Below, piece after piece: positions 8,614 to 35,436 of a DNA stretch of 64,000 nucleotides; within the stretch, counting starts at the first letter, position 1, and every line of letters starts with the position of its first letter. Location of the stretch: positions 129,210-193,209 of the forward strand of contig JAAEQR010000072.1 of NCBI GenBank assembly GCA_024231215.1, in the 5' to 3' direction. The stretch is from PVC group bacterium. GTDB lineage: Bacteria > Omnitrophota > Gorgyraeia > B26-G9. Under the pieces are notes generated by a model. It searched no databases. It saw nothing but the letters and a program-made list of their open reading frames with translations, and had not been told where the DNA came from. A program made the translations under genes and the position numbers.

Positions 8614-8635
8614 TATTAAGAAACTATAAATATCA

Positions 8636-8673
8636 AGCGGGGAGAAGATTTTAACTTTTCCCCGCTTTTTTTA
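8636..8673 (+). terminator. rho-independent terminator after gap
   Basis: Stem AGCGGGGA / TCCCCGCT followed by a T-run (TTTTTTT). Confidence 0.6.
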
Positions 8674-8766: not shown

Positions 8767-8889
8767 AAAATTGTTTAAAATGGGGGAGTACTATAGGCTC
8801 TTCCATAGGAAAAATTCTTGCCTTTTCCAGGGAAGGAACGTGTTTTATTTTTAAAAGGAGTTACTGTCTTAAATATTGAAGAGGTGAAC

Positions 8890-9135
8890 ATGGATGATAT
8901 TATGACCGCAATGGATGTGGTGAAAGAATTCAATATTTCTTATCAAACTTTAAATCACTATACCAATTTTGGTCTGCTTAATGCGGTTAAAAAAAGAGGC
9001 TTAGGGAATAAGCGCTTATATGCCGCATCCGAAGTAAAGAATAATCTTCAAAGAATCGATCAATTGAAAGAAAAAGGATATCCGTTAAAAATTATTGTCG
9101 AGATTCTAAAAGAGAATCATTCTGTTACTGTTTAG
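8890..9135 (+). CDS. MerR-like helix-turn-helix small protein
   Basis: MTAMDVVKEFNISYQTLNHYTNFGLL... matches the MerR-family HTH pattern (hydrophobic, x, E/K, x, x, G/N, I/V, S, x, x, T, L, R/N, x, Y). RBS GAGGTG lies before the ATG at 8890. Confidence 0.4.
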   Translation: MDDIMTAMDVVKEFNISYQTLNHYTNFGLLNAVKKRGLGNKRLYAASEVKNNLQRIDQLKEKGYPLKIIVEILKENHSVTV

Positions 9136-9171
9136 GGAGTTTATTTAAAGACCTTTTAAAAGGGGTAAATT

Positions 9172-10032
9172 ATGAGTTATTACAAAATTCTAGGTTTTGA
9201 TAAGGAACCGTTTTCCACAAGTCCTGATCCGTCATTTTTTTATGAATCACGTGAGCATGAGAGGGCGTTAACTAATTTGATGATTGAATTACGGCTTAAG
9301 CGTGGTTTGTCTGTGATTTTAGGAGACGTTGGGACGGGAAAAACTACTTTGAGCCGTAAACTCTATCAGCTTATCCAATCACAGGATGCATTCATCTGTC
9401 ATATGATTCTTGATCCGGTATATAATGACGAAGAGATATTTTTGACTTCTCTGGTAAGGAATTTTGAGGTGGAGCCGAATAATTTCGGGCCGGCAATCTT
9501 AAATCTAAAAGAAGCATTGGAGAAATTTCTTTATCAGAAAGGCGTTGAGCAAAATCAGACCGTTGTTTTAATTATCGATGAAGCACAAAAGCTTAATGAA
9601 GTAAGCTTAGAATGCTTGCGTGTTTTATTGAATTATGAAACAAACGAGTTTAAACTCTTGCAATTGGTTTTGCTCGGTCAAATGGAATTACATTCCAAAA
9701 TAATAAACATTCCTAATTTTATAGACAGAATTAGTTTTAAATATACTCTAAATCCTTTGGATGTAGAAGAAGTAAGAAGGATGATTGAATTTCGAATACG
9801 ACAGGCTGGTTATCAGTCTAATATTCAACTGTTTTTAGACCGGGCGATTAAGGAGATCCATCGTAATACCGGGGGATATCCGCGTCGTATCAACATGTTA
9901 TGTCATAAACTTCTTAAACAGTTGGTGATGAAAAATCAGTTTGTAGTTGATGAAGCATTGGTTAAAGAAGTAGTAGAAGAAGAATTGCGGCAGGGACTGC
10001 ACTGGGTAAGACAGCCTTCGGTAGTGGCTTAA
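9172..10032 (+). CDS. ExeA/GspA/MshM-family AAA ATPase (secretin assembly)
   Basis: Walker A GDVGTGKTTL, Walker B LIIDEAQ, and collinear with the AAA portion of ExeA/MshM. 286 aa. Confidence 0.7.
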   Translation: MSYYKILGFDKEPFSTSPDPSFFYESREHERALTNLMIELRLKRGLSVILGDVGTGKTTLSRKLYQLIQSQDAFICHMILDPVYNDEEIFLTSLVRNFEVEPNNFGPAILNLKEALEKFLYQKGVEQNQTVVLIIDEAQKLNEVSLECLRVLLNYETNEFKLLQLVLLGQMELHSKIINIPNFIDRISFKYTLNPLDVEEVRRMIEFRIRQAGYQSNIQLFLDRAIKEIHRNTGGYPRRINMLCHKLLKQLVMKNQFVVDEALVKEVVEEELRQGLHWVRQPSVVA

Positions 10033-10046
10033 ATAGGAAATGCGTT

Positions 10047-10724
10047 ATGGCCGATAAAAATGTTTCTCCGGAAAAACGTTTATTAAAGATAATTGAAGGG
10101 CAGCAGGATGAAGGGGCTGTGGCCTCAACGTTGAGGACCGGCAAGAAATATATGGCTCCTAGCAGTCTGAAGGGACGCTGGGCTTTTTTTAAAGAAAAAT
10201 TTAAAAAAGGCAACAAGACGGCAAAGAGGAAGTCTGCGCCTTGGGATATAAAAAAGGTTAATCAGGTCTTAAGTTTTAGTGTGGCATTGCTGTTTATAGG
10301 GTTTATATCTAGTATGCTTGTGGACTATTTTAATCTGAACAGCGATGATTTTGCAGTACCACAGATGGACTCAACTGCTCAGGCTACACCGATAAAGGGG
10401 CTTTCTTTGTTACAGCCTGAGGATCATTATTTACAGAAAGTAAGCGGACGCGATTTGTTCAAGTTTGGAGATATTGTAGTTGAGACGCCGGCTTTTCGTG
10501 AGGAGGATAAACCTCAGGTTTCGCGATTGCAAAGTTTAATGAAAGGGTTGAAACTAGTCGGGGTTTCCTGGGGGAAAGTTCCAGATGCGATTGTCGAGAA
10601 TGAAAGTGCAAATAAAACTTATTTTGTTAAAGCTGGATCGATGATTGAAGAAGCCACAGTAAAAAATATTTTTAAAGATAAAGTTGTTTTAGAACTTGAA
10701 GGAGAAGAGGCAGAGATAAGGTGA
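10047..10724 (+). CDS. bitopic membrane protein, GspC/PilP/GspB-like secretin-interacting component
   Basis: One TM segment (VLSFSVALLFIGFISSMLV). C-terminal ...LKLVGVSWGKVPDAIVEN...YFVKAGSMIEE..VKNIFKDKVVLE fits the PilP/GspC HR-domain beta-sandwich pattern. Position between the ExeA-like gene and the secretin. Confidence 0.4.
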   Translation: MADKNVSPEKRLLKIIEGQQDEGAVASTLRTGKKYMAPSSLKGRWAFFKEKFKKGNKTAKRKSAPWDIKKVNQVLSFSVALLFIGFISSMLVDYFNLNSDDFAVPQMDSTAQATPIKGLSLLQPEDHYLQKVSGRDLFKFGDIVVETPAFREEDKPQVSRLQSLMKGLKLVGVSWGKVPDAIVENESANKTYFVKAGSMIEEATVKNIFKDKVVLELEGEEAEIR

Positions 10725-12505
10725 AGCAGATCATCGGGGGGTTGATTATTGTTAGCATCTTATGTGCAACGGTTAGTTTGTTTGCGGAAGAGTTAGCGCA
10801 AGCTATATTGCCGCCACAGGCTACGACGGCACAGGTTGCTTTTTTACAAGAAGGTATATACGGTAGAATTTCTTTAGATCTGCGCCAGATTGATATCCAT
10901 GATGCATTGAAATACTTTTCATTAAAAAGTGGGTTGAATATTGTTACGTCAAAATCTGTAAGCGGAAGGGTCACTTTGATAGTGGAAGATGTTCCGGTTA
11001 AAGATGTATTTGACATAATGTTGAGATCTACGGGCTTGGCGTATGACAAAGTTGGCAGTATCTACAATGTAATGACTCAAGAAGAATATAAGATTCTTTA
11101 TGGTAAACGCTTTGCCGATATTCGTAAGGTTAAGGTTTTTCGTTTACAATATGCGGTTCCGGAACAGGCTTTTAGTTTGCTGGATACGATCAAAAGTGAA
11201 GTTGGACGTATCTTGGTTGATCCTGAGTCTGGTACTGTATTGTGTATGGATTCTCCGGAAAAAATAGAACAGATGCAGTCGGCACTGGATCAGTTTGAAC
11301 GAAAGGGAGTAACCCGGGTTTTTGATTTAAATTATGCGTTAGCTTCAGACATAGAAGAACATCTTAAAAGCAGGCTTGATGATAAAAAAGTAGGTTCAAT
11401 AAAAGCTGATGTAAGAGCAAACCAGGTTGTAGTTCATGCTTTGCCTAAAAGGATAGAAGAAATAGCAGAGCTGATAGAAATTTTGGATAAAAAAACAAAA
11501 GAAGTTTTGATTGAGGCCAAAATTTTAAAAATAAAATTGGGAAATAATTCAGAAGCCGGCGTAGAATGGGAAGGTATATTTAATGCTTCGGAAAATAATG
11601 GGTTGACTTATGTGGGGTCGTATCCTTTTAGCGCGGTGCAGGCGACGACTGATGAATGGAGATCAAGAAGTCAAGTTTGGAAGGATACAGGATATGTGGG
11701 GTCATATCCTTTTAGCGGAACAAGTTCTAACTATTCCGGAGGACGCTCATCTATTGGATTTGACAAAATGCATGTTGGGGTTGTAGGTTCCCATGATTTT
11801 GATTTTTTATTGAAATATTTGACAATTGAGAATGAAGCTAAGATTCTGTCTAATCCGAAAATTGCTGTGGTTAATAAGCAAGAAGCCAGGATTCATGTCG
11901 GAGAAAAACAGGCATATGTTACCACAACCACCACTAGCGGACAATCAACAAGTACTATTTCAGAAAACGTTACATTTATAGATATCGGGATTCAGCTTAA
12001 TGTGACTCCGACGATAAATGAAGATGATTTTGTGCGGTTACAGCTTAAGACAGAAGTAAGTAGTGTGGTGGATGTCTTACTTACTCCTACGGAGAATAAA
12101 ATCCCGATTGTGGACACATCGCTGGCTGAGACTGTAGTTTTAATCAAAGGAGGCAAAACAATTATTATTGCGGGGCTGCGGAAAGATGAAAAGTCAAAGA
12201 TAGTACGCCGAGTGCCGATCTTTAGTAAGATTCCGCTTTTAGGAAAACTATTTCAAACAAAAATAGATATTGTAAATCGCACAGAATTACTGATTATGGT
12301 CACTCCGCAGATTATTACCGGGGATGCTTTAGAAATGATGGATAGTAAGCCGATTGGAGCTCCGGATGTAAAAGATATTAAGGAGTATGGAGAACTGGAA
12401 AAAAGAAGAAAAGAATTAGAAACATATCAGCCGGTTGTAGAGGAATTAGGGGGTATGAAATTTAAAAATTTTAAAGTGTATGAAAAGATGCGGAATAAGG
12501 ATTAA
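10721..12505 (+). CDS. secretin (T2SS/T4P GspD/PilQ/MshL family)
   Basis: N0/N1-like N-terminal domains. C-terminal secretin signature NPKIAVVNKQEARIHVGEKQAYV...VVLIKGGKTIIIAGLRKDE...VPIFSKIPLLGKLFQTK...ELLIMVTPQII. Signal peptide present. Confidence 0.85.
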   Translation: MKQIIGGLIIVSILCATVSLFAEELAQAILPPQATTAQVAFLQEGIYGRISLDLRQIDIHDALKYFSLKSGLNIVTSKSVSGRVTLIVEDVPVKDVFDIMLRSTGLAYDKVGSIYNVMTQEEYKILYGKRFADIRKVKVFRLQYAVPEQAFSLLDTIKSEVGRILVDPESGTVLCMDSPEKIEQMQSALDQFERKGVTRVFDLNYALASDIEEHLKSRLDDKKVGSIKADVRANQVVVHALPKRIEEIAELIEILDKKTKEVLIEAKILKIKLGNNSEAGVEWEGIFNASENNGLTYVGSYPFSAVQATTDEWRSRSQVWKDTGYVGSYPFSGTSSNYSGGRSSIGFDKMHVGVVGSHDFDFLLKYLTIENEAKILSNPKIAVVNKQEARIHVGEKQAYVTTTTTSGQSTSTISENVTFIDIGIQLNVTPTINEDDFVRLQLKTEVSSVVDVLLTPTENKIPIVDTSLAETVVLIKGGKTIIIAGLRKDEKSKIVRRVPIFSKIPLLGKLFQTKIDIVNRTELLIMVTPQIITGDALEMMDSKPIGAPDVKDIKEYGELEKRRKELETYQPVVEELGGMKFKNFKVYEKMRNKD

Positions 12506-12509
12506 AAAT

Positions 12510-14894
12510 ATGAAAAGGAAAAGTATGCTTTATCAGAAAAAAATATGGGGAATAAGAATAGCGTGTGTAATTGTCATGTTTATTCTGGGGGGAAGTATTG
12601 CTGTCCAATCTGCGCCGGATTCTTATGTTACAAGTATTGTGGAAAAAATTGAACAGGATATGAATGCTTTGTCTAAAGAGTTGGAATTAAATAAGCAGGC
12701 TTACGAAAAATTGAAATCTGAACATGCGCAGAAACAACAGACATTGGTCGTTCGGGATAGAGAGATTGAAGTTTTGCATAAGAAAATTACGCAATCAAAG
12801 AAAGAGTTTTCAGAGAAACAACAGGCATTGGTCGTTCGGGATAGAGAGATTGAAGTTTTGCATAAGAAAATTACGCAATCAAAGAAAGAGTTTTCAGAGA
12901 AACAATATAAATTGAACCGGAAAGATGATGAAATTGCGAAGATTAAACAAGAGGCGAGTAGTTTAAAAAAAGAGGCACTGCAAAAAAACAAGATGGTGGC
13001 AAGCAAAGATGAAGAAATTACGGATTTGCAGGAACAGCTTAAAGATTTTGATGTTCTTCTGAAAAGTGCGCATGAAACTATAAATAAGTTGAGACATGAT
13101 GATTCTAATAAAGATATAGCTATAGAATCAGTTCGCGAAGAATTGCAAAAAACAGAAGATTCATTTTTGGATAAGATTCAGTCAGAGAGGGATTCTTTTG
13201 ATGAAAGGCTGGCTAAAGCTAATGAAGTAGCTGAAAAACTCAGGAATCAAAATAAAAAACAAGCACTTGAATATATACAGCAAATTCAGGAGAAAGAGGG
13301 ACAGATAAAAGTTTCTCAGAAAACTATTAATCAGAAGAATGAGATAGTAACAGGACTGAATAGTGAGCTGGATAAAGAAAGGTTGGCAAATGAAAATTTG
13401 CGTAGTCAGTATAATATCTCAGGAGACGAGAAGAAACAACTGTTGGCAACAATACATGAGTTGGAAACAGAGATAAGCAAGCAGTCTTTAAAGCTAAAAG
13501 CAAATCAGCAAAACCTGAGCAATGCAAATAAAGACCAGAGCACACTGAAACAGGATTATGATAAACTTCAAGAGGAACATGAAAAGATTCGTAATGAAAA
13601 GGAATTGTATTTAAGTAAAGTCTATTATTATGAAAAACAGCTAGAAGAAAAAGATAAGAAACTACAGGCATTACGTGACGATATACAGAGACAGGTGTCT
13701 TTATTGCATCATCAGCTGGGTGGGGTAGTTCAGGTTTCCCAGGAGACTGATTCTCAGGGGCAGCAGCTTAAGGATAAAAAAGCTGAGCTTGAACAGGTTA
13801 AATTGCAAACAAGACAGGCTGAACGTGATTTTCAGGAACAATTAGGAAAGATGAGCAAGGAAAATAAAAAATTGCTGGAACAGAGTAATAAGCTAGTTGA
13901 AGAAAAATTACAGATTCTAGCACATATGTTGCAGCTGGAAGAAGAGCAGACAATAGAAAGTGAGGCAGGGATTGCTCCGGATATAGAGCATGAGCTAGTG
14001 TATATAAAGAATGAGTTAATAAATCTAAGTGCGTCTTTAGATCAGAAAGGGCTTGAATTAACTAAACTACAAGAGGAAAATTATAAATTATTTAAAGAAA
14101 AAAATGAGCTGCGTAATATTCTTCATGAATATAATGAACAGCTGTTGGCCAAAGATAAAAAGTTTAAGCATGCACAGCAGATAATGAAACAGAAAGAAAA
14201 GTCTCAGGGTTCAAGATCTAAGGAAATTAAAAGAGATCTTGATGTCCAGATGCGGAAATTCAGAAAGGTCAATGCTGATTTTGAGAAAAAAAATGTTTTA
14301 TATGAAAAAGATATGAAGAAATATTTATCTCAGCTGAATGATTTAAGGGATAAATTAGCTATTTCTAGAGATCAATATGAGAGTGCGAAAAAGGATCGTG
14401 ATTCTTATGCTAAGCGTTTGAAGGATATTTACGCGGATGAGAGAGATTGGCAGAAAAAAGATGCACAACAATTAACGCTGTTAAGCAGTTATTCCAAAAA
14501 CATAGATGAATTGAATGCAAAGATACATACTCTTAATACGGATAATAAACGACTTAGTTTACTGCTTAAGACTATGCCGGAAAAATTGCAGACATTGGAA
14601 AATGACGTTGGTAATCTACGTAAGCAGAATGCCACATTGCATTATAATTTAGGTGTATTTCATACCCAGCGACAGGAATATACACAGTCTATAGCTGAGT
14701 TTAGTCAGGCTTTGAAGTTTAACTCTAGTGATGCTAGCACACATTATAATCTGGGTGTTATATATTCTCAATATTTAATTGATGAATCAAAGGCAGTAGT
14801 ACATTTTAAACATTACCTTGTTTTGGCTCCAAATGATAAGGATATACAAAGGGCAAAAGAGTATATTCTGCTTTGGGGGAATAGAGGTAGGTAA
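12510..14894 (+). CDS. long coiled-coil protein with signal-anchor N-terminus and C-terminal TPR repeats (MshN-like?)
   Basis: N-terminal hydrophobic segment, about 650 aa of heptad-rich K/E/Q sequence, then a C-terminal YNLGVFHT...YNLGVIY TPR pair. ATG at 12510 is preferred over the 12480 start, which overlaps the secretin. Confidence 0.6.
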   Translation: MKRKSMLYQKKIWGIRIACVIVMFILGGSIAVQSAPDSYVTSIVEKIEQDMNALSKELELNKQAYEKLKSEHAQKQQTLVVRDREIEVLHKKITQSKKEFSEKQQALVVRDREIEVLHKKITQSKKEFSEKQYKLNRKDDEIAKIKQEASSLKKEALQKNKMVASKDEEITDLQEQLKDFDVLLKSAHETINKLRHDDSNKDIAIESVREELQKTEDSFLDKIQSERDSFDERLAKANEVAEKLRNQNKKQALEYIQQIQEKEGQIKVSQKTINQKNEIVTGLNSELDKERLANENLRSQYNISGDEKKQLLATIHELETEISKQSLKLKANQQNLSNANKDQSTLKQDYDKLQEEHEKIRNEKELYLSKVYYYEKQLEEKDKKLQALRDDIQRQVSLLHHQLGGVVQVSQETDSQGQQLKDKKAELEQVKLQTRQAERDFQEQLGKMSKENKKLLEQSNKLVEEKLQILAHMLQLEEEQTIESEAGIAPDIEHELVYIKNELINLSASLDQKGLELTKLQEENYKLFKEKNELRNILHEYNEQLLAKDKKFKHAQQIMKQKEKSQGSRSKEIKRDLDVQMRKFRKVNADFEKKNVLYEKDMKKYLSQLNDLRDKLAISRDQYESAKKDRDSYAKRLKDIYADERDWQKKDAQQLTLLSSYSKNIDELNAKIHTLNTDNKRLSLLLKTMPEKLQTLENDVGNLRKQNATLHYNLGVFHTQRQEYTQSIAEFSQALKFNSSDASTHYNLGVIYSQYLIDESKAVVHFKHYLVLAPNDKDIQRAKEYILLWGNRGR
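12731..12898 (+). repeat. perfect in-frame 84-bp tandem duplication (2 units) inside the coiled-coil gene
   Basis: GAAACAACAG(A/G)CATTGGTCGTTCGGGATAGAGAGATTGAAGTTTTGCATAAGAAAATTACGCAATCAAAGAAAGAGTTTTCAGA occurs twice back to back, encoding ...LVVRDREIEVLHKKITQSKKEFSEKQQ twice. Confidence 0.85.
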
Positions 14895-14903
14895 AAAATC
14901 GAA

Positions 14904-16730
14904 ATGCAAAAGTCAAAAATGAAAAAAATAGAGATAGCTATTACCTTAATGATTCTTTTTGCGAGTGGTAGTTTTGTATGCGCCGAAGATGTTCAGCAAT
15001 ATGCGGCTTTGTCTTCTTCTGCTCCTACTCAAGGGGTAATATCTAATTTAGCTATTTCCAGAGAATGTATGTCGTTAGATTTAAGGGATATTGATGTGAA
15101 AGACGCTTTGAAATATTTAGCTTCAAGGGCAAATATGAATATTGTCCCGACTAATGATGTTTCCGGTCGGATTACGTTGATGATCAAAAATGCGCCTTTG
15201 TCAGATATTTTTGATATTGTTATCCGTTCTAATGGATTGGCATACGAGAAAATAGGTAGCATTTACAATGTTATGACAGATCAGGAATATGTAGATCGGT
15301 ATGGAAAAAAATTTGATGATATTCGTCAGCTTAAAGTGTTTCATTTAACATATGTGGTTCCTGAGCAGGCATTTGCGATTATTGATTCTATAAAGAGTAA
15401 TATTGGTACAGTATTGTTAAACTCAGAGTCTGGAACGATTGTAGTGTTGGATACTCCTGATATTATAGCGGAAATTGATATTGCTTTGCAATCGTTAGAA
15501 CGTAAAAACAGTATTCAGATATTTGATTTGAAATATGCAAACGCAAAAGATATCGCGAAACAGCTGAAAACACAACTGGATAAAAAGAAAGCGGGAAAGA
15601 TCAGAGCTGATCTTCGGACTAATCAGGTTGTTGTTGAGACATTGCCTGAAAGGATGAAGGATATCGCGCGTCTTATTAAGGGGCTGGATAAAAAAACCAA
15701 AGCGGTATTAATTGACGCGCGAATTATTCAGGTGAAGTTAAGTGATGATTTAAGTAGTGGGGTAGAGTGGGAAGGTTTGTTTGATGTTACTACTGCAGGT
15801 GGGGCGACTACTTATTTTGGCAGTACTCCAGTTGCTTCTATGCAAAGTCAGGTTGGCACTTGGCGTTCTCGGCAAACAGTACTTAGTGATACCGGGTATA
15901 TAGGTTCATATCCTTTTAGCGGGACGAGTACTGATTACGATTCTGGTACAAAAAAAGTACTTAGTGAAGAAATGCATGTCGGAGTTGTTGGTGAAAATGA
16001 CTTTGATGTTCTTATTACATATCTTAAGACCTTGGGTAAAGTGAAAATATTATCTAATCCTAAGTTATCGGTGACTAATAATCAGGAAGCACGAATACAT
16101 GTGGGAGAACGACAGGCATATATAACCTCTATTACTACTGCGGGGCAAACCACAACTACAGTGTCAGAAGAGGTGACTTTTCTTGATGTAGGTTTGCAGC
16201 TATTTCTCACGCCGTGCATAAACGATGAAGGATATGTAACTTTAAATATAAAACCGGAGATAAGCAGTGTGGTGGGATATTTGACTACTGCTCAGGAGAA
16301 TAAAATTCCGATAATTGATACTTCTACGGCTGAAACAACAGTTCTGGTAAAAGATGGGTCGACTGTGGCTGTGGGAGGATTGCGTCGGGATGAAAAAACA
16401 ATAAATTCAAAAGAAGTTCCTTTGTTAGGTAGAATTCCTTTTTTAGGAACTCTTTTTAAGTCAGAAGAAAATAAAAATAAACGCAGTGAATTATTAATTA
16501 TGGTTACAGCTCATATTGTAGAAGGTGATGAATTAACTACAGGAAGATCCAGCGAGTTTAAACATAAATTAGATAAGGAATATCAGGATTATCAATCGAT
16601 TAATAGGGAGTCCGGATTGACTGAATATGAAAAAGAAAAAAATATAACTATTCAACAAAAAATGTATCAAAAATATCCGGGGTATGATGAGGAAGAAGAA
16701 CTTCAGCCAACCATAAAACCATTAAGGTAG
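14904..16730 (+). CDS. secretin, paralog of the 10721 gene
   Basis: Same architecture and collinear similarity: DIDVKDALKYLASRANMNIV..., NPKLSVTNNQEARIHVGERQAYI..., TTVLVKDGSTVAVGGLRRDE..., VPLLGRIPFLGTLFKSE..., ELLIMVTAHIV. Confidence 0.85.
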   Translation: MQKSKMKKIEIAITLMILFASGSFVCAEDVQQYAALSSSAPTQGVISNLAISRECMSLDLRDIDVKDALKYLASRANMNIVPTNDVSGRITLMIKNAPLSDIFDIVIRSNGLAYEKIGSIYNVMTDQEYVDRYGKKFDDIRQLKVFHLTYVVPEQAFAIIDSIKSNIGTVLLNSESGTIVVLDTPDIIAEIDIALQSLERKNSIQIFDLKYANAKDIAKQLKTQLDKKKAGKIRADLRTNQVVVETLPERMKDIARLIKGLDKKTKAVLIDARIIQVKLSDDLSSGVEWEGLFDVTTAGGATTYFGSTPVASMQSQVGTWRSRQTVLSDTGYIGSYPFSGTSTDYDSGTKKVLSEEMHVGVVGENDFDVLITYLKTLGKVKILSNPKLSVTNNQEARIHVGERQAYITSITTAGQTTTTVSEEVTFLDVGLQLFLTPCINDEGYVTLNIKPEISSVVGYLTTAQENKIPIIDTSTAETTVLVKDGSTVAVGGLRRDEKTINSKEVPLLGRIPFLGTLFKSEENKNKRSELLIMVTAHIVEGDELTTGRSSEFKHKLDKEYQDYQSINRESGLTEYEKEKNITIQQKMYQKYPGYDEEEELQPTIKPLR

Positions 16731-16735
16731 AGAAG

Positions 16736-17719
16736 GTGAATAAAGTGAAATCAATAAAAGTTATAATTTTTATTTTGTTGACGGTGATGTTGATCCCGGG
16801 GTTTTTGCGAGCTCAAACGGCAGGAGATACTCCTACGTTAAAGGCGGAATACGAGAAACTATCTAAGGAATATGAGGCTATGGCAAAAGATAGGGATAAT
16901 TTGCGAGCACAGACAAAAATTCTTTTAAAGTATAAAAGTCAAATTGTAAAAGCAGAAGAACAGACTAATAAAATTGACATTGAGCGTAGTCAGTGGCAGA
17001 TTGAGAAGAAAGTATTGAGACACGAAAATGAGAAACTAAAAGGAGAGATTTCGCAGTTAAACGGTATGGTGGAAATGACAGAAAAATATCGGATGCAGTT
17101 AGAAGAAGAAAAAGATAAAATAAGAAAATCTTTGTCTAAGTCTAAGTCTGGATATATAATAGTAGAGGATTTAAAGCGAAAGGTTTCGAACGAAAAAAAA
17201 GAAAAAAATTATCTCAAAAAAGAGGCTGTACGGTTCCGAAGTAAAATAAAGAAGCTTGATAATTCATTGGCGAAAGCCGAGACCGTCGAAGAAGTTTTAC
17301 GCGATCAGATAACTGAGCTGAAAGAAAAGTATAAGGAAGCACAGAGAAGCAACGAGTTATTAGAGAAGAAGTTAAATGAAGAACCTAAACGCTATGCTGA
17401 AGTTGCTAGGGAAAACAAGGTTTTGCTTAAGCGTACTGCTTTAATGCATTATAATTTGGGGGTATTTTATACTAAGAATAAAGAATATCCTCGGGCGATA
17501 TCGGAATTCGAAAAAGCAATTGAATTAAATCCAAAAGATACTTATGCGTATTTTAACTTGGGTTACATCTATTCTGAATATTATGTGGATCGTCCGAAAG
17601 CAATTGAAAATTTTCGTAAGTATTTGTCTCTGGCAAAACAAGAGGACAATGATGTAGACTGGGTCAAAAGATATATACTTACTTGGCAGACATGGGAAGG
17701 TAAAGAGGTAATTAAATAA
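16736..17719 (+). CDS. coiled-coil protein with signal-anchor and C-terminal TPR repeats (paralog of the C-terminus of the 12510 gene)
   Basis: Hydrophobic N-terminus, K/E-rich heptads, and C-terminal HYNLGVFYTKNKEY...YFNLGYIYSEY TPR units similar to the end of the 804-aa protein. Confidence 0.55.
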   Translation: MNKVKSIKVIIFILLTVMLIPGFLRAQTAGDTPTLKAEYEKLSKEYEAMAKDRDNLRAQTKILLKYKSQIVKAEEQTNKIDIERSQWQIEKKVLRHENEKLKGEISQLNGMVEMTEKYRMQLEEEKDKIRKSLSKSKSGYIIVEDLKRKVSNEKKEKNYLKKEAVRFRSKIKKLDNSLAKAETVEEVLRDQITELKEKYKEAQRSNELLEKKLNEEPKRYAEVARENKVLLKRTALMHYNLGVFYTKNKEYPRAISEFEKAIELNPKDTYAYFNLGYIYSEYYVDRPKAIENFRKYLSLAKQEDNDVDWVKRYILTWQTWEGKEVIK

Positions 17720-17763
17720 TAGTAGGCTCTGCAAGGGCTGGAGTATTGAAGAGAGGAGAAAGT

Positions 17764-18348
17764 ATGAAGAAGGTTATTGGTGTTGTGCTTGTGATAATGA
17801 CTATTTTTGTTTTTTCTTTACAAGAAGGATATGCATTTTTTGGCAATAAAAAGAAGGCTGCTGATACTACTGAAGAAGAAACTATCCAGGAAGTAAGTAA
17901 AGCTCCGGAAAAAGAAGTCGAGAAACAGCCGGAGGTTAAAGTTGAAGAAAAAGCCCCAGCGATTGACAAGAAAATAGTTCAGATGAAAGCTATGAAGAAA
18001 AAGAAACGGGCACAGTTAAATAATACAATGTGGGATATTGAAGTTATCGATTTATCCTCTAAAACTAAGCAGAAAGCTGACGTGCTTGTTTTTGGAAAAG
18101 ATGGTTTTTATTCAGAAAATAAATCTGCAATTGATTTTGCTGCAACAAATTACACTTTAAATTTGCAAGACGATGGAAGTGTTACATGGGAAACAATGCA
18201 AAGCGGCAAAGACGGAGCAGTATTATTCTGGAAAGGTGAACTTGATAAGAAAATGACCAGCATGCGTGGTATTTTTAGTCATCAAGTTGCGGGGAAAACA
18301 GAAAATTATTCTTTTAACAGCACGGGGAAGAGACCTTTGAGAAAATAA
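17764..18348 (+). CDS. secreted hypothetical protein
   Basis: RBS GAGAGGAG, then an ATG. N-terminal signal peptide MKKVIGVVLVIMTIFVFSLQEGYA. No recognisable domain. Confidence 0.4.
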   Translation: MKKVIGVVLVIMTIFVFSLQEGYAFFGNKKKAADTTEEETIQEVSKAPEKEVEKQPEVKVEEKAPAIDKKIVQMKAMKKKKRAQLNNTMWDIEVIDLSSKTKQKADVLVFGKDGFYSENKSAIDFAATNYTLNLQDDGSVTWETMQSGKDGAVLFWKGELDKKMTSMRGIFSHQVAGKTENYSFNSTGKRPLRK

Positions 18349-18376
18349 AGACTAATAGTTATTAGAGGAATAGGTG

Positions 18377-19483
18377 ATGTTAAAGATATCTGATATTTTG
18401 AAAAAGGCAAGAGGCCAAGGCCGCCAGAAAAATAAGAAAAAAGCGGAAAAAACAAAACAAAATGAAACGCCAAAGCCTATATCTGAAACACCCCAATCGA
18501 AAGAAAAAAAACGGGATATTCCACCGGTTGATTTAGAAATAAAAAGTTCTAAAAATGAAGAAGAAATTGAGCCTGTTGTAAATTCCAAAGTTGCTCTGGG
18601 GGAAATAGCCAGCCTTTATCAGCAGGCAGTTGCTTTAGTTAAAGAGATATTGTCTCCGTTAGCTAAAAAAAAGAACTTGATTAGTAAAGCAGAGGAATTG
18701 GTCGATAAATTTGTAGACATAATTAAAAAAGATAGTACTACGTTATTAAAGTTCTTTTTTTGTGATTACGAGGTTTTGAATGAATATATGTATCAACATG
18801 CTGTTAATGTTTGTATTTTTTCTTTGGCGCTGGGGATCGGAATGCGTTATGATAATGCCCATCTTAAAAAACTAGGGGTGGGAGCATTGCTTCACGATGC
18901 TGGATTAGGAAAATTCGATTCTATTATTAATAAACCAAGGAAGCTTGAGCCGGGTGAGCTTGAAGAAGTAAAAAGACATCCTGCCGAAGGGAAAGAAGTA
19001 TTAAAAAAATATGCAAAATATCTGGATTTTAAAATATTCGATATTGTGTATCAGGAACATGAACGCATTAATGGCAGTGGATATCCTCAAGGGTTAAAAA
19101 ACGATATGATTGATGAGGATGCTAAGCTTATCGGCTTAGTAGATGTATATGAAGCAATTATCCATTCTCGGCCACATAGACCAAAGTTTAGTTGTCAGGA
19201 CGCTATACAGCTTATTTTGAACGAAAAGAAAGCATTTGAATATAAATTCATAAAAAATTTGATTGATACCATTGGGATTTATCCTATAGGGACATTGGTT
19301 GAATTAAATACTCGGGAAGTAGGTGTGGTTCTAAAACAGACCCCCAAAATGCCGTTTAGGCCGAGTATTGATATAACGCATAATAGTAATAGACAAAAAA
19401 TGACAGAGTCTAAACACGTTGATTTATCAAGCAATTTTTCAATATATATTAAACATTGTTTTAGTGAATTTCAAAAACAGTAA
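18377..19483 (+). CDS. HD-GYP domain protein (c-di-GMP phosphodiesterase family)
   Basis: ALLHDAGLGK ... HHERINGSGYPQGL matches the HD-GYP signature (HD ... HHE ... GYP). Confidence 0.7.
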   Translation: MLKISDILKKARGQGRQKNKKKAEKTKQNETPKPISETPQSKEKKRDIPPVDLEIKSSKNEEEIEPVVNSKVALGEIASLYQQAVALVKEILSPLAKKKNLISKAEELVDKFVDIIKKDSTTLLKFFFCDYEVLNEYMYQHAVNVCIFSLALGIGMRYDNAHLKKLGVGALLHDAGLGKFDSIINKPRKLEPGELEEVKRHPAEGKEVLKKYAKYLDFKIFDIVYQEHERINGSGYPQGLKNDMIDEDAKLIGLVDVYEAIIHSRPHRPKFSCQDAIQLILNEKKAFEYKFIKNLIDTIGIYPIGTLVELNTREVGVVLKQTPKMPFRPSIDITHNSNRQKMTESKHVDLSSNFSIYIKHCFSEFQKQ

Positions 19484-19515: not shown

Positions 19516-21357
19516 ATGCTAAAATTCAATAAAATACTTATTGTTTTGTTTTGTGGACTACTGGTCTCAAGCGGATATATTGTCTACCGTTTTAGAGCAA
19601 CGATAAAAGAGGTAGGCGAATTAAAAACCTATAACAGAACGTTGTCTAAGAAAAAGGATATGTTGGAAGGGCAACTGACAACAGAAAAAAAGAACAAAAA
19701 TGTGGAAATCGAGAAACTTAAGGAGAAGCTTACAGGGCTAAAGGATACCCGGAAAATACAGGAATTATTTACGGATGCTCAAGGCAAAATCAAAAATTTT
19801 GATGCAAAATTTCAAGAATTGCAAAAAGAAAATATATATTTAGAGCAAACAAATAGAGCGATTAATGGACGTTTTAATAATTTAACGAAAGATTTTATTA
19901 AGACACTTGATATTTTAAAACAGACCCGTCAACATCTTACTGAAGCACGTAATAGTAAAGCGTTGCGTTTACATGAAAAAGAAACAAAGAAGTTGAATTC
20001 TAATCTAAAAAAGAAGGAAAACTTAGTTGTTAAGCTGAGTAAAGATATTAAACGGTTGCAGAAGGATAATGATAACTCATCAAAGAATAATAAATTATTA
20101 GTCGATGAAATTGGTAAATTAAAAAAGAATAAACAGTCTTTAGAATTGCGTTATGAAAAGATTAGAGAAAAGCTGAAACAAAGTGAGCAGGAAATAAAAG
20201 AGACAAGCAATAAATTTGTTAAAGAGAAATCAGTTGAGAAGAAACCAGTTAGACAAAAAGATGATGGATTAAGAAGGCAGCTGAAGGAACTCAAAGGGGA
20301 ACTGGCAGACAAAGAAAAACAACAGCGCACATTAAAGCGTTTTCTTGAACAGGAAAAACAGCGCCGAAAGATTACAGAAAATAAGCTTGAGCAATATCAG
20401 AAACGATTAAAAGTAGTAAGTGAACAGACAAGGGATGACCTTGCTTCAGCCAGGAAAGCAATTAGAAAATATGATATGGTTAAGTCCGAAAGAGATTCTC
20501 TTGAAAAGGCACTTAAGAAGGCCGAAGAAGAAATAAAAGAGAAGGCTGAGTTTGTTAAGGGGTTGGAAAAAAAAGTAGATGATATTAATAAAAAGCTGAC
20601 TAAAAGAGAAGAAGAAAAGGAGGCAATGTCAAAGGATATTGCCAAACTTAAGAAGACAAGAATCCCGATAGGTTCCGGCCTAGCCTCAGATATGGCACAG
20701 ATTGACGAAGGAGCGGGGGTAGAAGCCCCTGATGCAAGGAAGATGCAGGATAATTTAAATAAGGTATATGCGCTTTATGACACAGCTAAGGCTCAAGTTG
20801 TGAAATTTTCCGAACTTTTAATGCAAAAGGAGTTAAAGTTAGAAAAGAGTAAACAGAAGCTAGACTCTTTAGAGCAGGAAATAAAGATGCTTAGGGGCGG
20901 GGTAATTACTCCCGGATCGGGCGAGGTTCCAGGCCAAGTTGCGGTATTAAATATGAAAAAATTAAAAATTGAAGAAAAGTTTAAATATGAAAAACAAAAA
21001 TATGAAGATATAAATGAGTTATATGTTAATTTAAAGAGCCAAGTGGTTCAGGTAACTTCTCTTTTGACCAGACGAGAGACTGAATTAGAGGATAAAACTA
21101 GAGAAATTATAAATCTAAAGAGAGAATTAGCAAAGGCGCAGCAGCAGTATTCTTTGGCTCAGCAGGAATTGAATGATGTTCGACAGAGACAGAGAAGAAC
21201 TTTGGATGATTTGTCTCGTACTACACGGTTGAATGCTACGTTACAGGAAAATATGATGTATAATGAACATAGTAATGATAATACACGGAAAGAACAGAAA
21301 AAGGCGGAAGAACTAAAGAAAGAGCTTGAGGCTTTCTTAGGAAATAGAATAGAATGA
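19516..21357 (+). CDS. N-terminally membrane-anchored long coiled-coil protein
   Basis: TM segment ILIVLFCGLLVSSGYIVY, then about 580 aa of K/E/Q-rich heptad sequence. Its stop overlaps the start of the Wza-like gene (ATGA). Confidence 0.5.
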   Translation: MLKFNKILIVLFCGLLVSSGYIVYRFRATIKEVGELKTYNRTLSKKKDMLEGQLTTEKKNKNVEIEKLKEKLTGLKDTRKIQELFTDAQGKIKNFDAKFQELQKENIYLEQTNRAINGRFNNLTKDFIKTLDILKQTRQHLTEARNSKALRLHEKETKKLNSNLKKKENLVVKLSKDIKRLQKDNDNSSKNNKLLVDEIGKLKKNKQSLELRYEKIREKLKQSEQEIKETSNKFVKEKSVEKKPVRQKDDGLRRQLKELKGELADKEKQQRTLKRFLEQEKQRRKITENKLEQYQKRLKVVSEQTRDDLASARKAIRKYDMVKSERDSLEKALKKAEEEIKEKAEFVKGLEKKVDDINKKLTKREEEKEAMSKDIAKLKKTRIPIGSGLASDMAQIDEGAGVEAPDARKMQDNLNKVYALYDTAKAQVVKFSELLMQKELKLEKSKQKLDSLEQEIKMLRGGVITPGSGEVPGQVAVLNMKKLKIEEKFKYEKQKYEDINELYVNLKSQVVQVTSLLTRRETELEDKTREIINLKRELAKAQQQYSLAQQELNDVRQRQRRTLDDLSRTTRLNATLQENMMYNEHSNDNTRKEQKKAEELKKELEAFLGNRIE

Positions 21358-22514
21358 CATTTTTTAGAAAATATCTAACCCACATTATTATGAGTGCGGT
21401 TATTTTTTTATCCATAATGAATCTCTCTTACGCGCAAGCAGAAATAAAACAAAAAGCCGATGAACATTATAAGAAGGGATTATTGCTGTACCATGATGGG
21501 GAATACGAAAAGGCGCAGGCAGAATTCTTGAAAGCAAAGAAGTTGATCGACAAGGTAAAAAAACAGAAGGTTGATCCTAAGAAGACAATGGCTGTTGTCA
21601 ATGAACACTATCAAAAAGGATTGACTGAACATTATAAGAAGGGATTATTGCTGTACCATGATGGGGAATACGAAAAGGCGCAGGCAGAATTCTTGAAAGC
21701 AAAGAAGTTGATCGCTGAGGTAAAAAAACAGAAGGCTGATCCTGAGAAAACAAAGGCTGTTGCCAATGAACACTATCAAAAAGGATTGACTTTATATTAC
21801 CAAGGTGAATATGAAAAAGCTAAAGAAGAATTTTTAAAGGCAAAAGTCTTAGCTGGGGCAAGTGTGCATAAAGAACAAACAGTTATTAGTAAAGAAGTAA
21901 AGCCGGAGAAAAAGAAAAAATCTTTTGAATATATTATTGGCGAAGGCGATGTCTTGGCTGTTTCGGTATGGGAAAATGACGACCTTGATGCTGAAGTTAT
22001 GGTTCGTCCAGATGGGAAAGTTTCTTTTGCTTTAGTAGGAGATGTTCTGGCTGTTGGTTTTACTATTGAGCAATTTCGTCAGGACTTGACAGCGCTTTTA
22101 AAAGAATATATACGTTATCCTCAGGTGTCTGTTTCTATTAAGGTAGTCGGAGGAGAAAAAGTAATTGTCTTAGGCCATGTAAGAAGTCCGGGTGTGTATG
22201 AAATAACCGGAAGGAAAACTATTTTAGAAGCTATTGGGAAAGCAGGAGGTTTTACGCGTGATGCAGTGCTTAAGAGTATTATCGTTGTCAAGGGAGGCCT
22301 TGAGACTCCGGTGCCTAAAAAGCTTAATCTAACCAGAGCTTTGAAAAAAGGAGAGGTTATTGAGAATATTGTCTTAGAATCAGAAGATATTATATATGTA
22401 CCCAGCCGGGTTATTGCCGATGTCAGCTACTTTATGCGTACTATTCTTTCCCCAATAACACAAAGTGTTTCTACAACACAGGATATTAACGATATCCGTG
22501 ACTGGAACAACTAA
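21354..22514 (+). CDS. Wza/KpsD-like polysaccharide export protein (Poly_export + SLBB) with N-terminal TPR-like repeats
   Basis: Signal peptide. C-terminal FEYIIGEGDVLAVSVWENDDL...VRPDGKVSFALVGDVLAVGFT..QFRQDL and VIVLGHVRSPGVYEI...ILEAIGKAGG match the Poly_export/SLBB pattern. The N-terminus carries a duplicated 55-aa unit. Confidence 0.65.
   Translation: MTFFRKYLTHIIMSAVIFLSIMNLSYAQAEIKQKADEHYKKGLLLYHDGEYEKAQAEFLKAKKLIDKVKKQKVDPKKTMAVVNEHYQKGLTEHYKKGLLLYHDGEYEKAQAEFLKAKKLIAEVKKQKADPEKTKAVANEHYQKGLTLYYQGEYEKAKEEFLKAKVLAGASVHKEQTVISKEVKPEKKKKSFEYIIGEGDVLAVSVWENDDLDAEVMVRPDGKVSFALVGDVLAVGFTIEQFRQDLTALLKEYIRYPQVSVSIKVVGGEKVIVLGHVRSPGVYEITGRKTILEAIGKAGGFTRDAVLKSIIVVKGGLETPVPKKLNLTRALKKGEVIENIVLESEDIIYVPSRVIADVSYFMRTILSPITQSVSTTQDINDIRDWNN
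21462..21791 (+). repeat. in-frame 165-bp tandem repeat (2 units) in the Wza-like gene
   Basis: GAACATTATAAGAAGGGATTATTGCTGTACCATGATGGGGAATACGAAAAGGCGCAGGCAGAATTCTTGAAAGCAAAGAAGTTGATCG is identical at 21462 and 21627. The remainder of each unit diverges by a few substitutions. Confidence 0.8.
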
Positions 22515-29494: not shown

Positions 29495-29704
29495 GTTCTG
29501 CGATAATCTGCTCAAAATTTGACCTATTAGTGTAACGAGTTGAAATAAAAAGAGTTACTGCCGAATTTTTTATTCAAAAACCTCCTGTATAGTATTGAAA
29601 ATAATATAAATATATGATATACTTTAATATCTTTTTTAACTTCGAAGAAAAAGTTCCTAACATGTTTATTTTATTTGAGTTAACTGTTTAGCAGAAATAA
29701 GGTT

Positions 29705-30451: not shown

Positions 30452-30471
30452 TTGGTTAATAGTGAGAGTAG

Positions 30472-34980: not shown

Positions 34981-35436
34981 ATGGAAAATAAGGTTATTGC
35001 GAGGAATAAAACGGCATTCCATCGCTACGATATCATTGAAAAAATCGAAGCAGGTATTGCTCTTAAAGGCACGGAAGTGAAGTCGCTTCGTAAGCATAAT
35101 GTTGATTTAAAAGACAGTTATGCCAGGGTCTCTAACGGTGAAGTATTTATTCACAATATGTATATAACTCCTTATGAAGAAGCTAGTTATAACAATGAAG
35201 AACCGCGACGTATTCGTAAGCTTTTATTGCATAAAAGAGAAATAGACAAACTCCTGGGTAAAGTACACCAGAAGAGCCTGACTATAATTCCGTTAAGCTT
35301 GTATTTTAATAATAAAGGAAAAGCTAAAATTGAACTGGCTGTGGCTAAAGGCCGGAAGATATATGACCAAAGGGAAAAGATAAAGAAGAAGGAAGTAGAA
35401 ATACAGTTACGCAAAGTCCAGAGTTTTAGAAAATAA
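34981..35436 (+). CDS. smpB: SsrA-binding protein
   Basis: Collinear with SmpB (…FHRYDIIEKIEAGIALKGTEVKSLR…). 151 aa. Immediately upstream of the tmRNA. Confidence 0.9.
   Translation: MENKVIARNKTAFHRYDIIEKIEAGIALKGTEVKSLRKHNVDLKDSYARVSNGEVFIHNMYITPYEEASYNNEEPRRIRKLLLHKREIDKLLGKVHQKSLTIIPLSLYFNNKGKAKIELAVAKGRKIYDQREKIKKKEVEIQLRKVQSFRK

What the first reader, a model, noticed from the sequence alone, without database searches (positions are those of the whole stretch)
8890..17719. ExeA/MshM-like ATPase + GspC/PilP-like protein + two tandem secretin / coiled-coil-TPR modules, with no pilins or T2SS/T4P ATPases in the window
Two paralogous secretins (10721 and 14904) are each followed by a long signal-anchored coiled-coil protein ending in a similar TPR pair (12510 and 16736). 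Both follow an ExeA-type assembly ATPase and a PilP/GspC-like bitopic protein under one promoter. MshM (ExeA-like) and MshN (TPR) are known accessory components of MSHA pili. Here the TPR partner is fused to roughly 250-650 aa of coiled coil and the secretin/TPR pair is duplicated. That suggests an outer-membrane channel system with a periplasm-spanning coiled-coil tether, not a canonical T2SS or T4P. Both secretins carry an internal duplicated Y(V/I)GSYPFSG beta-hairpin motif.
Basis: partly seen in the sequence, partly recalled or inferred. Interest (0 to 1): 0.65.

Follow-up and report, generated by a model that had tools for sequence, protein, structure and literature searches.

The report
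Omnitrophota secretin operon, T2SS outer half
This is a gene cluster conserved across the uncultured phylum Omnitrophota that most likely builds the outer-membrane half of a type II secretion-like machine, using two old secretin copies and partner proteins (coiled-coil/TPR and a new small domain) that nobody has described.

Summary
At 8818-17719 (+) lie a MerR-like HTH, an AAA_22 (GspA/MshM-type) ATPase, a bitopic protein whose C-terminal domain has the GspC-HR/PilP fold, and two secretins 48% identical to each other. Each secretin is followed by a secreted coiled-coil protein ending in a related 3-TPR domain. The window holds no pilins, GspE/PilB ATPases or platform proteins.

It adds a 200-aa protein with a domain unknown to Pfam and the PDB, an HD-GYP protein, another coiled-coil protein and a Wza-like polysaccharide export protein.

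The cluster was found only in Omnitrophota: 119 species genomes, 82 loci examined. The secretin duplication is ancient, and many lineages carry a single module.

The "not a T2SS/T4P" reading is only partly supported. In an early-branching relative (L085), MerR-ATPase-GspC-like-secretin sits directly after a gspE-F-G-H-I-J-K-L-M operon. In another contig (L083), gspE-F-G-H follows the cluster. So this is most likely the detached outer-membrane and assembly half of a T2SS-like machine.

The coiled-coil/TPR partners, the new domain and the paired secretins are undescribed. The first partner varies from 376 to 1628 aa, which argues against a fixed periplasm-spanning tether.

The parts
8635..8667 (+). 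terminator-like hairpin after the upstream GAPDH gene; it marks the likely 5' boundary of the unit
   Evidence: 13-bp stem with 7 GC pairs followed by a T run
8818..9135 (+). small MerR-like HTH protein (likely ATG start at 8890, about 81 aa). It is the first gene of the cluster in nearly all related loci, and a second copy precedes secretin 2 in one clade.
   Evidence: MerR_1 E 2.3e-9; synteny; also present in L085 (MerR_1 E 5e-15)
9172..10032 (+). soluble AAA+ ATPase of the GspA/ExeA/MshM/TIGR03015 family (paralogue type A1)
   Evidence: AAA_22 E 1.2e-19; TIGR03015 188 bits, below cutoff; no hydrophobic segment; no PDB relative by sequence; tree
10047..10724 (+). bitopic inner-membrane protein. 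It has a conserved cytoplasmic N-terminal motif (SPEKRLLKIIEG), one TM segment, and a C-terminal GspC-HR/PilP-fold domain predicted to bind the secretin N0 domain.
   Evidence: alignment A2; AF2 model; top 8 Foldseek PDB hits are GspC-HR/PilP; T2SSC E 1.1e-4
10721..12505 (+). secretin 1 (the 'first' orthologue group): N0/STN, two N domains, secretin core, and a 62-aa C-terminal tail
   Evidence: Pfam; NCBIfam PilQ 251 bits against a 284 cutoff; PDB best hits are PilQ; tree; tails
12480..14894 (+). long secreted coiled-coil protein ending in a 3-TPR domain (partner of secretin 1; likely start at 12510). It contains an in-frame 84-bp tandem duplication at 12730-12905.
   Evidence: TPR_11 E 2.9e-11; C-terminus 39% identical to the short partner; orthologues range from 376 to 1628 aa; tandem repeat
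14904..16730 (+). secretin 2 (the 'second' orthologue group), with a 69-aa C-terminal tail carrying conserved KEYQxY ... YQxYP ... LKPxK motifs
   Evidence: Pfam; 48% identical to secretin 1; PDB best hit PilQ 6ve2, E 1e-40
16736..17719 (+). short secreted coiled-coil protein (two helices of about 100 residues with a hinge) ending in a nearly invariant 3-TPR domain (partner of secretin 2)
   Evidence: 372 homologues, all named ones from Omnitrophota; alignment A1; AF2 model pLDDT 82.6; Foldseek finds CTPR3 and CHIP-type peptide-binding TPRs
17746..18348 (+). p200: signal peptide, a Lys/Glu-rich linker, and a conserved C-terminal domain of about 110 aa (...vWETMQ...FWRGE...) with no known relatives. 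It always follows the short partner.
   Evidence: no Pfam or NCBIfam hit; no PDB hit with a profile; 726 cluster representatives at E <= 1e-3; synteny
18374..19483 (+). HD-GYP-type phosphodiesterase domain protein, likely c-di-GMP-related (HD...GYP residues can be read in the sequence)
   Evidence: HD_5 E 1.9e-19; conserved position in two-secretin loci
19516..21357 (+). 613-aa protein with an N-terminal hydrophobic segment followed by a long coiled coil
   Evidence: no Pfam hit, only SMC-like coiled-coil noise; hydrophobic residues 1-19; conserved position
21354..22514 (+). outer-membrane polysaccharide export (OPX/Wza-like) protein with an N-terminal TPR region. It is the last conserved gene of the two-secretin form and contains an in-frame 165-bp duplication at 21461-21791.
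   Evidence: Poly_export E 3.9e-21, SLBB_2 E 2.9e-13; tandem repeat; in L084 it is followed by Wzc-like, Wzy_C and ABC-2 genes

Best explanation
The region encodes the outer-membrane and assembly half of an Omnitrophota-specific type II secretion-like machine (type IV filament superfamily).

Proposed mechanism:
- A cytoplasmic GspA/MshM-type AAA+ ATPase docks on the conserved cytoplasmic N-terminus of a bitopic inner-membrane protein (inferred).
- That protein's periplasmic GspC-HR/PilP-fold domain binds the N0 domain of a PilQ/GspD-type secretin in the outer membrane (fold shown; binding inferred from the GspC-GspD and PilP-PilQ complexes).
- Each of the two anciently duplicated secretins has its own secreted partner, a coiled coil ending in a 3-TPR domain. 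The TPR domain probably clamps the secretin's conserved C-terminal tail. This would take the place of the pilotin, S-domain or MshN/TadD function in helping the secretin assemble, localise or stay stable (inferred).
- p200, and in other lineages a SurA-like/cyclophilin chaperone, are further periplasmic assembly factors (inferred).
- The motor (GspE), platform (GspF, L, M) and pseudopilins (GspG-K) that would push cargo through the channel are encoded elsewhere in most genomes.
- The downstream HD-GYP, coiled-coil and Wza-like genes link the unit to c-di-GMP control and polysaccharide export (co-location shown; coupling inferred).
For: 1. Component homology.
- AAA_22/TIGR03015-family ATPase.
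- GspC-HR/PilP fold in the bitopic protein.
- Secretins closest to PilQ and then GspD.

2. Gene neighbourhood in relatives.
- L085 carries GspE (TIGR02533, 620 bits), GspF, GspG (98.8 bits, above its cutoff), H, I, J, K-like, a PilM+PilN fusion and a GspM-like protein. These are followed directly by MerR, the ATPase (56% identical), the GspC-like protein with the same N-terminal motif, and a secretin.
- The L085 ATPase branches as sister to all A1 ATPases of the Omnitrophota clusters.
- L083 has the complete two-secretin cluster followed by MshEN-T2SSE, T2SSF, a GspG-like pilin and a minor pseudopilin.
- The L083 and L085 GspE proteins are each other's closest relatives in the metagenome collection.

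3. Conservation.
- The core MerR-ATPase-GspC-like-secretin-CC/TPR-p200 keeps its order in 82 loci.
- 'First', 'second' and 'single' secretins form separate clades.

4. Candidate TPR ligand.
- The TPR domain is nearly invariant and resembles peptide-binding 3-TPR domains.
- Secretin tails carry group-specific conserved motifs.

5. Published context. Omnitrophota are reported to encode type IV filament machinery widely (PMC10066038).
Against: - In 82 of 84 cluster loci, and in the 64-kb window, no motor, platform or pilin gene lies within about 10 kb. One adjacency (L083) among about 80 loci is no more than chance would give.
- The taxonomic origin of L085 is unknown. Its secretin has a TonB-C-like end instead of the tail. 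Its locus is cut before any partner gene, so it shows only that the 4-gene core belongs to a T2SS, not the coiled-coil/TPR or p200 parts.
- The secretins fall below every NCBIfam equivalog cutoff (GspD, PilQ, MshL).
- A T2SS normally has one secretin, and only one GspC-like gene serves two secretins here.
- The ATPase lacks the TM segment and peptidoglycan-binding domain of GspA/ExeA.
- The partners have no lipobox, so they are not classical pilotins.
- TPR-tail binding and ATPase docking are untested.
Confidence: 0.6

Rival explanations
1. The secretins are the PilQ channels of the type IVa pili that Omnitrophota commonly encode, or one secretin serves T4aP and the other the T2SS-like machine. 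They would simply be encoded apart from pilMNO and pilBC. This is the same kind of role as the best explanation, with a different filament.
For: - The best solved relatives are PilQ of P. aeruginosa, V. cholerae and M. xanthus.
- The PilQ subfamily model scores highest (251 and 248 bits).
- T4aP genes are reported as complete in many Omnitrophota (PMC10066038).
- Two secretin orthologue groups could match two machines.
Against: - Both scores are below the PilQ cutoff of 284.
- There are no AMIN domains, and no pilM/N/O/P genes nearby in any locus.
- The only motor operons found next to the core are GspG/J/K-type, i.e. T2SS-like.
Confidence: 0.17
2. One reading: a self-contained outer-membrane channel system, not part of any T2SS or T4P. 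Coiled-coil/TPR proteins would tether the secretins across the periplasm, and the AAA_22 ATPase would be the only energy source.
For: - No motor or pilin genes in the window or in 82 of 84 loci.
- The operon has its own cytoplasmic, inner-membrane, periplasmic and outer-membrane parts and is conserved across the phylum.
Against: - The core lies inside a T2SS operon in L085 and next to one in L083.
- The first partner varies 4-fold in length.
- The N-termini look like cleavable signal peptides.
- GspA-type ATPases are known as assembly factors, not translocation motors (established knowledge of ExeAB/GspAB).
Confidence: 0.1
3. An envelope complex dedicated to exporting or displaying polysaccharide or large surface proteins. 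The secretins would work with the Wza-like OPX protein, the coiled-coil proteins and nearby glycosylation or giant-protein genes.
For: - An OPX gene ends every two-secretin cluster.
- In L084 it is followed by Wzc-like, Wzy_C and ABC-2 genes.
- GT2, PMT_2 and STT3 genes, or 1500-2700-aa Ig-domain proteins, flank single-module loci.
- An HD-GYP gene is present.
Against: - No known polysaccharide pathway uses a secretin.
- OPX and HD-GYP are absent next to single-module clusters, so they are not part of the core.
- The flanking genes differ between lineages.
Confidence: 0.08
4. A DNA uptake or export channel. This is suggested by the MerR-type HTH protein, a DNA-ATPase-like AAA_22 fold, HofQ-like secretins and, in other lineages, a p200-domain protein fused to an IS200/Y1-transposase-like domain.
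For: - MerR_1 HTH at the head of the operon.
- HofQ models hit the secretins, though far below cutoff.
- One p200-family member carries Y1_Tnp, E 1.4e-5.
Against: - No ComEA, ComEC or competence pilin genes nearby.
- The HTH protein is more simply a regulator.
- The HofQ scores only reflect the shared secretin core.
Confidence: 0.03

Closest known systems
Type II secretion system outer-membrane complex with its assembly factors (GspD secretin, GspC, GspA/GspB = ExeA/ExeB)
   Same: - A secretin with N0 plus N domains.
- A bitopic inner-membrane protein with an HR-fold domain.
- An AAA_22 ATPase encoded just upstream of that bitopic protein, as in gspAB/exeAB.
- In L085 the core follows gspE-M.
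   Different: - The ATPase has no TM segment or peptidoglycan-binding domain.
- The HR protein has no PDZ or coiled-coil end, but has a long conserved cytoplasmic N-terminus.
- There are two secretin paralogues.
- There is no GspS-type lipoprotein pilotin. Instead there are secreted coiled-coil/3-TPR partners and the p200 protein.
- The cluster is unlinked from gspE-M in most genomes.
MSHA pilus accessory set MshK-MshL-MshM-MshN (Vibrio)
   Same: A secretin, an ExeA-like soluble ATPase and a TPR protein are encoded side by side. MshM is a mandatory marker of MSH systems, and MshN is homologous to the Tad pilotin TadD (PMC6668835).
   Different: - The MshL model scores 153 and 178 bits, below its 250 cutoff.
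- The TPR protein is fused to 200-1500 aa of coiled coil and has only 3 repeats.
- No mshA, mshE or mshG genes are in the locus.
Type IVa pilus secretin PilQ with PilP and the TPR pilotin PilF/PilW/Tgl
   Same: The best sequence matches to solved structures are PilQ. The HR domain matches PilP. A TPR protein is needed for PilQ assembly in those systems.
   Different: - No AMIN domains.
- The partner is not a lipoprotein and has 3 rather than about 6 TPRs.
- No pilMNO genes nearby.
XrtA/PEP-CTERM exopolysaccharide loci (TIGR03015 ATPase, PrsT TPR lipoprotein, Wza-like exporter)
   Same: The best NCBIfam hit of the ATPase is TIGR03015. A TPR protein and a Poly_export/SLBB exporter are in the same operon.
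   Different: The ATPase score is 188 against a 324.5 cutoff. The window has no exosortase and no PEP-CTERM proteins. Those loci do not contain secretins.

Membership tests
Type II secretion system (Gsp) | GspD secretin (NCBIfam TIGR02517 equivalog) | tested here: not met
   232.0 and 232.8 bits against a cutoff of 351.35. Pfam Secretin, Secretin_N and STN domains are present.
Type II secretion system (Gsp) | GspC-type inner-membrane protein with an HR domain that binds secretin N0 | tested here: met
   The C-terminal domain of the AF2 model matches GspC-HR in complex with GspD (3oss_C, TM 0.77, rmsd 1.3 A), LspC, PulC-HR and PilP. The Pfam T2SSC match is below cutoff. No PDZ domain.
Type II secretion system (Gsp) | GspE ATPase, GspF platform, GspG-K pseudopilins and GspL/M in the same genome | not testable with these tools
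   Absent from the 64-kb window. Present next to the homologous core in L085 and L083. The rest of the window's genome could not be read.
GspA/GspB (ExeA/ExeB) secretin-assembly pair | AAA_22 ATPase with a TM segment and a periplasmic peptidoglycan-binding domain, paired with a bitopic partner | tested here: not met
   AAA_22 is present and the bitopic partner lies directly downstream, but the ATPase has no hydrophobic segment and no peptidoglycan-binding domain. It resembles soluble MshM more than ExeA.
MSHA (MSH) pilus | MshL secretin (TIGR02519 equivalog) | tested here: not met
   153.4 and 178.4 bits against a cutoff of 250.2.
MSHA (MSH) pilus | mandatory mshA, mshE, mshG and mshM (PMC6668835) | tested here: inconclusive
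   An MshM-family ATPase is present. No pilin, MshE or MshG is in the window. The MSH model allows scattered loci, so the genes could lie elsewhere in the genome.
Type IVa pilus | PilQ secretin (TIGR02515 subfamily) with AMIN domains | tested here: not met
   251.1 and 248.3 bits against a cutoff of 284.35. No AMIN domain in Pfam. PilQ is nevertheless the closest solved relative.
Type IVa pilus | TPR lipoprotein pilotin (PilF/PilW/Tgl) | tested here: not met
   PilW and Tgl models give only weak generic TPR hits (E 1e-7 and 1.5e-4, far below cutoff). No Cys or lipobox at the N-terminus in 28 homologues.
XrtA/PEP-CTERM system | TIGR03015 ATPase above cutoff, together with an exosortase | tested here: not met
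   188.2 bits against a cutoff of 324.5. No exosortase among the window's ORFs.
OPX (Wza-like) polysaccharide exporter (gene 21354-22514 only) | Poly_export domain followed by SLBB domain(s) | tested here: met
   Poly_export 75.4 bits and SLBB_2 50.1 bits, both above cutoff. Only one SLBB domain. An outer-membrane helix was not tested.

The most novel reading that the evidence does not exclude
The long partner of secretin 1 may not be an assembly factor. It could be a secretin-docked fibre: its invariant 3-TPR end would hold the secretin tail, while its fast-evolving 300-1500-aa coiled coil (in-frame repeat gains, no head domain) is threaded through or displayed from the channel. That would be a non-pilus surface appendage used by these ultra-small, probably host-dependent bacteria to reach other cells. 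Secretin 2 with its fixed-length partner would keep the ordinary secretion role.
Probability: 0.1. Interest if true: 0.8.

Novelty: new variant of a known kind. Interest (0 to 1): 0.5.

Why it matters
Omnitrophota are widespread, uncultured, ultra-small bacteria thought to live as predators or parasites. How they secrete proteins or touch hosts is unknown.

This work defines a phylum-wide operon that public records annotate only as 'hypothetical', 'AAA family ATPase' or 'TPR protein'. It ties that operon to a T2SS-like machine and gives three concrete new parts to test:
- a coiled-coil/3-TPR secretin partner, a candidate replacement for lipoprotein pilotins;
- a new periplasmic domain of about 110 aa;
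- a stable pair of secretin paralogues.

It also matters for automated secretion-system calls such as TXSScan, which may count these secretins as the PilQ or GspD of scattered systems.

Tried and rejected
- **Exact look-ups of window proteins in the contig index** failed for three proteins. The source record could be named only through protein accessions MCP4649082-91, locus tags GY853_032xx, on a 708-kb contig of a 'PVC group bacterium' MAG.
- **Literature.** No paper links Omnitrophota to secretins or describes this cluster.
- **Word-indexed homologue searches** for the GspC-like protein and p200 returned only 9 and 2 proteins. The p200 domain therefore could not be modelled with a useful alignment.
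- **p200 profile searches** against the PDB and Pfam found nothing. Cluster look-ups of p200 relatives gave no taxon names.
- **Fold search of the short partner** returned only generic designed or consensus TPRs and CHIP/OGT, with no link to PilF, TadD or BamD.
- **Metagenome scan seeded with the L083 GspE.** Of 80 loci, 79 were unrelated T2SS/T4P loci from other bacteria (42-49% identity, mixed GC). Only L085 was informative.
- **Rfam.** No riboswitch or other RNA element lies in or before the cluster.
- **Prophage or filamentous-phage origin of the secretins: rejected.** The cluster sits in the same housekeeping context (GAPDH upstream, PGI downstream) in several genera and contains no phage genes.
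- **Recent tandem duplication of the secretin/partner pair: rejected.** The tree shows separate old clades for the first and second copies.

Full report
**What is in the window.**
The window has about 37% GC and strong positive GC skew, and almost all genes lie on the + strand. A 13-bp-stem terminator (8635-8667) follows a GAPDH gene. After it, twelve tightly spaced + strand genes run to 22514, with gaps of at most 36 nt or small overlaps:

| Coordinates | Gene |
|---|---|
| 8818/8890-9135 | MerR-like HTH |
| 9172-10032 | AAA_22 ATPase |
| 10047-10724 | bitopic GspC-like protein |
| 10721-12505 | secretin 1 |
| 12480/12510-14894 | long coiled-coil/TPR protein |
| 14904-16730 | secretin 2 |
| 16736-17719 | short coiled-coil/TPR protein |
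| 17746-18348 | 200-aa secreted protein ('p200') |
| 18374-19483 | HD-GYP protein |
| 19516-21357 | 613-aa coiled-coil protein |
| 21354-22514 | TPR + Poly_export/SLBB (Wza-like) protein |

The rest of the window is housekeeping: PriA, Fmt, GalT-like genes, PGI, LexA, queuosine genes, ribosomal protein S2/EF-Ts, GlmS, PEPCK, tRNAs and tmRNA. No six-frame translation contains a prepilin-type N-terminus.

**Check of the observation.**
- The two secretins are 48% identical end to end.
- The two partners share a C-terminal 126-aa region at 39% identity, E 1e-26.
- The ATPase has intact Walker A and B motifs and belongs to the GspA/MshM/TIGR03015 family, though below the TIGR03015 cutoff.
- The 225-aa protein has one TM segment. 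An AF2 model built on 9 homologues has a confident six-stranded C-terminal domain whose eight best PDB matches are all GspC-HR or PilP domains.
- The YxGSYPFS motif is exactly duplicated only in secretin 1. It is a family trait of the beta-lip region and is not an extra insertion relative to PilQ.
- The partners' N-termini look like cleavable signal peptides in the alignment, not anchors.

**Distribution and anatomy across relatives.**
- The short partner has 372 detectable homologues. All named ones are from Omnitrophota or 'PVC group' MAGs, they are 310-360 aa long, and their last 110 residues or so are almost invariant.
- A scan of one genome per species found 119 loci. All of the 80 kept are Omnitrophota, although a few bins are labelled Planctomycetia or Deltaproteobacteria.
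- BLAST-based synteny over 82 loci shows a fixed core: MerR - ATPase - GspC-like - secretin - CC/TPR - p200.
- About half of the lineages have one secretin/partner module. The others have two and then continue with (ATPase paralogue A2) - HD-GYP - coiled coil - OPX.
- In a neighbour-joining tree of 106 secretins, 'first', 'second' and 'single' copies form separate clades. The duplication is therefore old and both copies have been kept.
- The first partner ranges from 376 to 1628 aa (median 756). The second ranges from 310 to 471 aa (median 325) and the single-module partner from 333 to 413 aa.
- In the window the long partner carries a 98%-identical in-frame 84-bp duplication.
- Other recurrent neighbours, absent from the window, are a SurA-like/cyclophilin chaperone, a PAS/GAF histidine kinase with a REC-only regulator, glycosylation genes (GT2, PMT_2, STT3) and 1500-2700-aa Ig-domain proteins.

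**New parts.**
- The p200 C-terminal domain has no Pfam, NCBIfam or PDB relative, yet it has 726 cluster representatives in an exhaustive search. In single-module lineages it occurs in 2-3 paralogues per locus. One of these is fused to an IS200/Y1-transposase-like cytoplasmic domain.
- The short partner is predicted as two helices of about 100 residues joined by a conserved hinge, followed by a 3-TPR domain with a capping helix (pLDDT 82.6). That domain resembles peptide-binding TPRs.
- The secretins end in 55-70-aa tails with group-specific conserved motifs. I propose these as the TPR ligand. This is inference only.

**Which machine it belongs to.**
None of the 82 species-genome loci, nor the window, has a GspE/PilB Walker A motif or a pilin N-terminus within about 10 kb. 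Two metagenomic contigs change the picture.
- L083 carries the full two-secretin cluster, followed after the OPX gene by MshEN-T2SSE, T2SSF, a GspG-like pilin and a minor pseudopilin.
- Using that GspE as a probe, its closest relative in the metagenome collection (L085, 55% identity, GC 0.39) heads this operon: GspE - GspF - GspG (above the NCBIfam cutoff) - H - I - J - K-like - PilM/PilN fusion - GspM-like. It is followed 27 nt later by MerR - ATPase (56% identical to the window's) - a GspC-like protein with the same N-terminal motif - a secretin.
- The L085 ATPase is sister to all A1 ATPases of the Omnitrophota clusters.

The 4-gene core is the A/C/D part of a T2SS-type operon. In crown Omnitrophota that part became detached and gained the CC/TPR and p200 partners.

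Caveats:
- A single adjacency (L083) among about 80 loci is at chance level on its own.
- L085 is unplaced taxonomically. Its secretin ends in a TonB-C-like domain, and its locus is cut before any partner gene.
- The window's own genome could not be searched beyond 64 kb.

**Mechanism and rivals.**
The best-supported model (about 0.6) is a trans-envelope chain: ATPase - bitopic HR protein - secretin N0. The CC/3-TPR proteins would act as paralogue-specific periplasmic secretin partners, replacing lipoprotein pilotins, and the channel would serve a T2SS-like pseudopilus encoded elsewhere.

Rival explanations:
- The secretins serve T4aP instead of, or as well as, the T2SS-like machine (0.17). 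PilQ is the closest solved relative, and T4aP is reported as common in the phylum.
The 4-fold length variation of the first partner and the L085/L083 neighbourhoods weigh against it.
- A polysaccharide or surface-protein export complex (0.08), based on OPX and on the Wzc/Wzy genes in L084.
- A DNA channel (0.03).

**Novelty.**
No paper in the searchable library mentions secretins in Omnitrophota or a coiled-coil/TPR secretin partner. GenBank names the proteins 'hypothetical', 'AAA family ATPase' or 'tetratricopeptide repeat protein'.

The secretins, ATPase and HR protein are members of known superfamilies but fall below all equivalog cutoffs. I rate this a new variant of a known kind: a T2SS-like outer-membrane module with undescribed accessory proteins and a conserved secretin pair. 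It is of moderate interest, mainly because it gives testable parts for the secretion and contact biology of an uncultured, probably host-dependent phylum.

Noticed in passing
window 35523-35954 (+), next to smpB at 34981-35436: A full-length tmRNA (Rfam RF00023, 182.8 bits) lies directly downstream of SmpB. ARAGORN did not report it.
   Followed up: no
window 12730-12905 and 21461-21791: Two recent in-frame tandem duplications: 84 bp x 2.1 at 98% identity in the long coiled-coil protein, and 165 bp x 2.0 at 95% in the TPR region of the Wza-like protein. They show ongoing length change by repeat gain.
   Followed up: partly
L050, L062, L066, L072 (e.g. L066:14018-15442; L072:10305-11738): In single-secretin lineages, a 400-480-aa protein joins an N-terminal IS200/RayT-like (Y1 transposase-like) cytoplasmic domain to a TM segment, a coiled coil and a periplasmic p200 domain. 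One family member hits Pfam Y1_Tnp at E 1.4e-5.
   Followed up: partly
L085:10164-12109: The secretin that follows the T2SS operon in this relative carries a C-terminal TonB_2/TonB_C-like domain (23.7 bits, above cutoff) where the window's secretins have a short conserved tail.
   Followed up: partly
related loci L002, L016, L017, L025-L027, L030-L036, L038-L040, L043, L044, L048, L049, L065, L083, L084: A second, deeply diverged paralogue of the ATPase (A2) sits between p200 and the HD-GYP gene. Some lineages have both A1 and A2, some only A2, and the window only A1.
   Followed up: partly
window 27854-32652 (+): Three consecutive ORFs of 546, 248 and 726 aa after tRNA-Leu have no meaningful Pfam match. 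They were not examined further.
   Followed up: no
window 5559-6584 and 6584-7591 (+): Two adjacent paralogous GalT/HIT-family (galactose-1-phosphate uridylyltransferase-like) genes lie upstream of GAPDH. The GalT-GAPDH-cluster-PGI arrangement recurs in the closest relatives.
   Followed up: no
single-module loci, e.g. L057:13489-20881, L069:12501-18753, L074:13551-20878: A 140-170-aa secreted protein followed by a 1500-2700-aa protein with Kre9_KNH Ig-like and other beta domains lies downstream of the cluster in about 19 loci. These could be cargo or surface proteins.
   Followed up: partly
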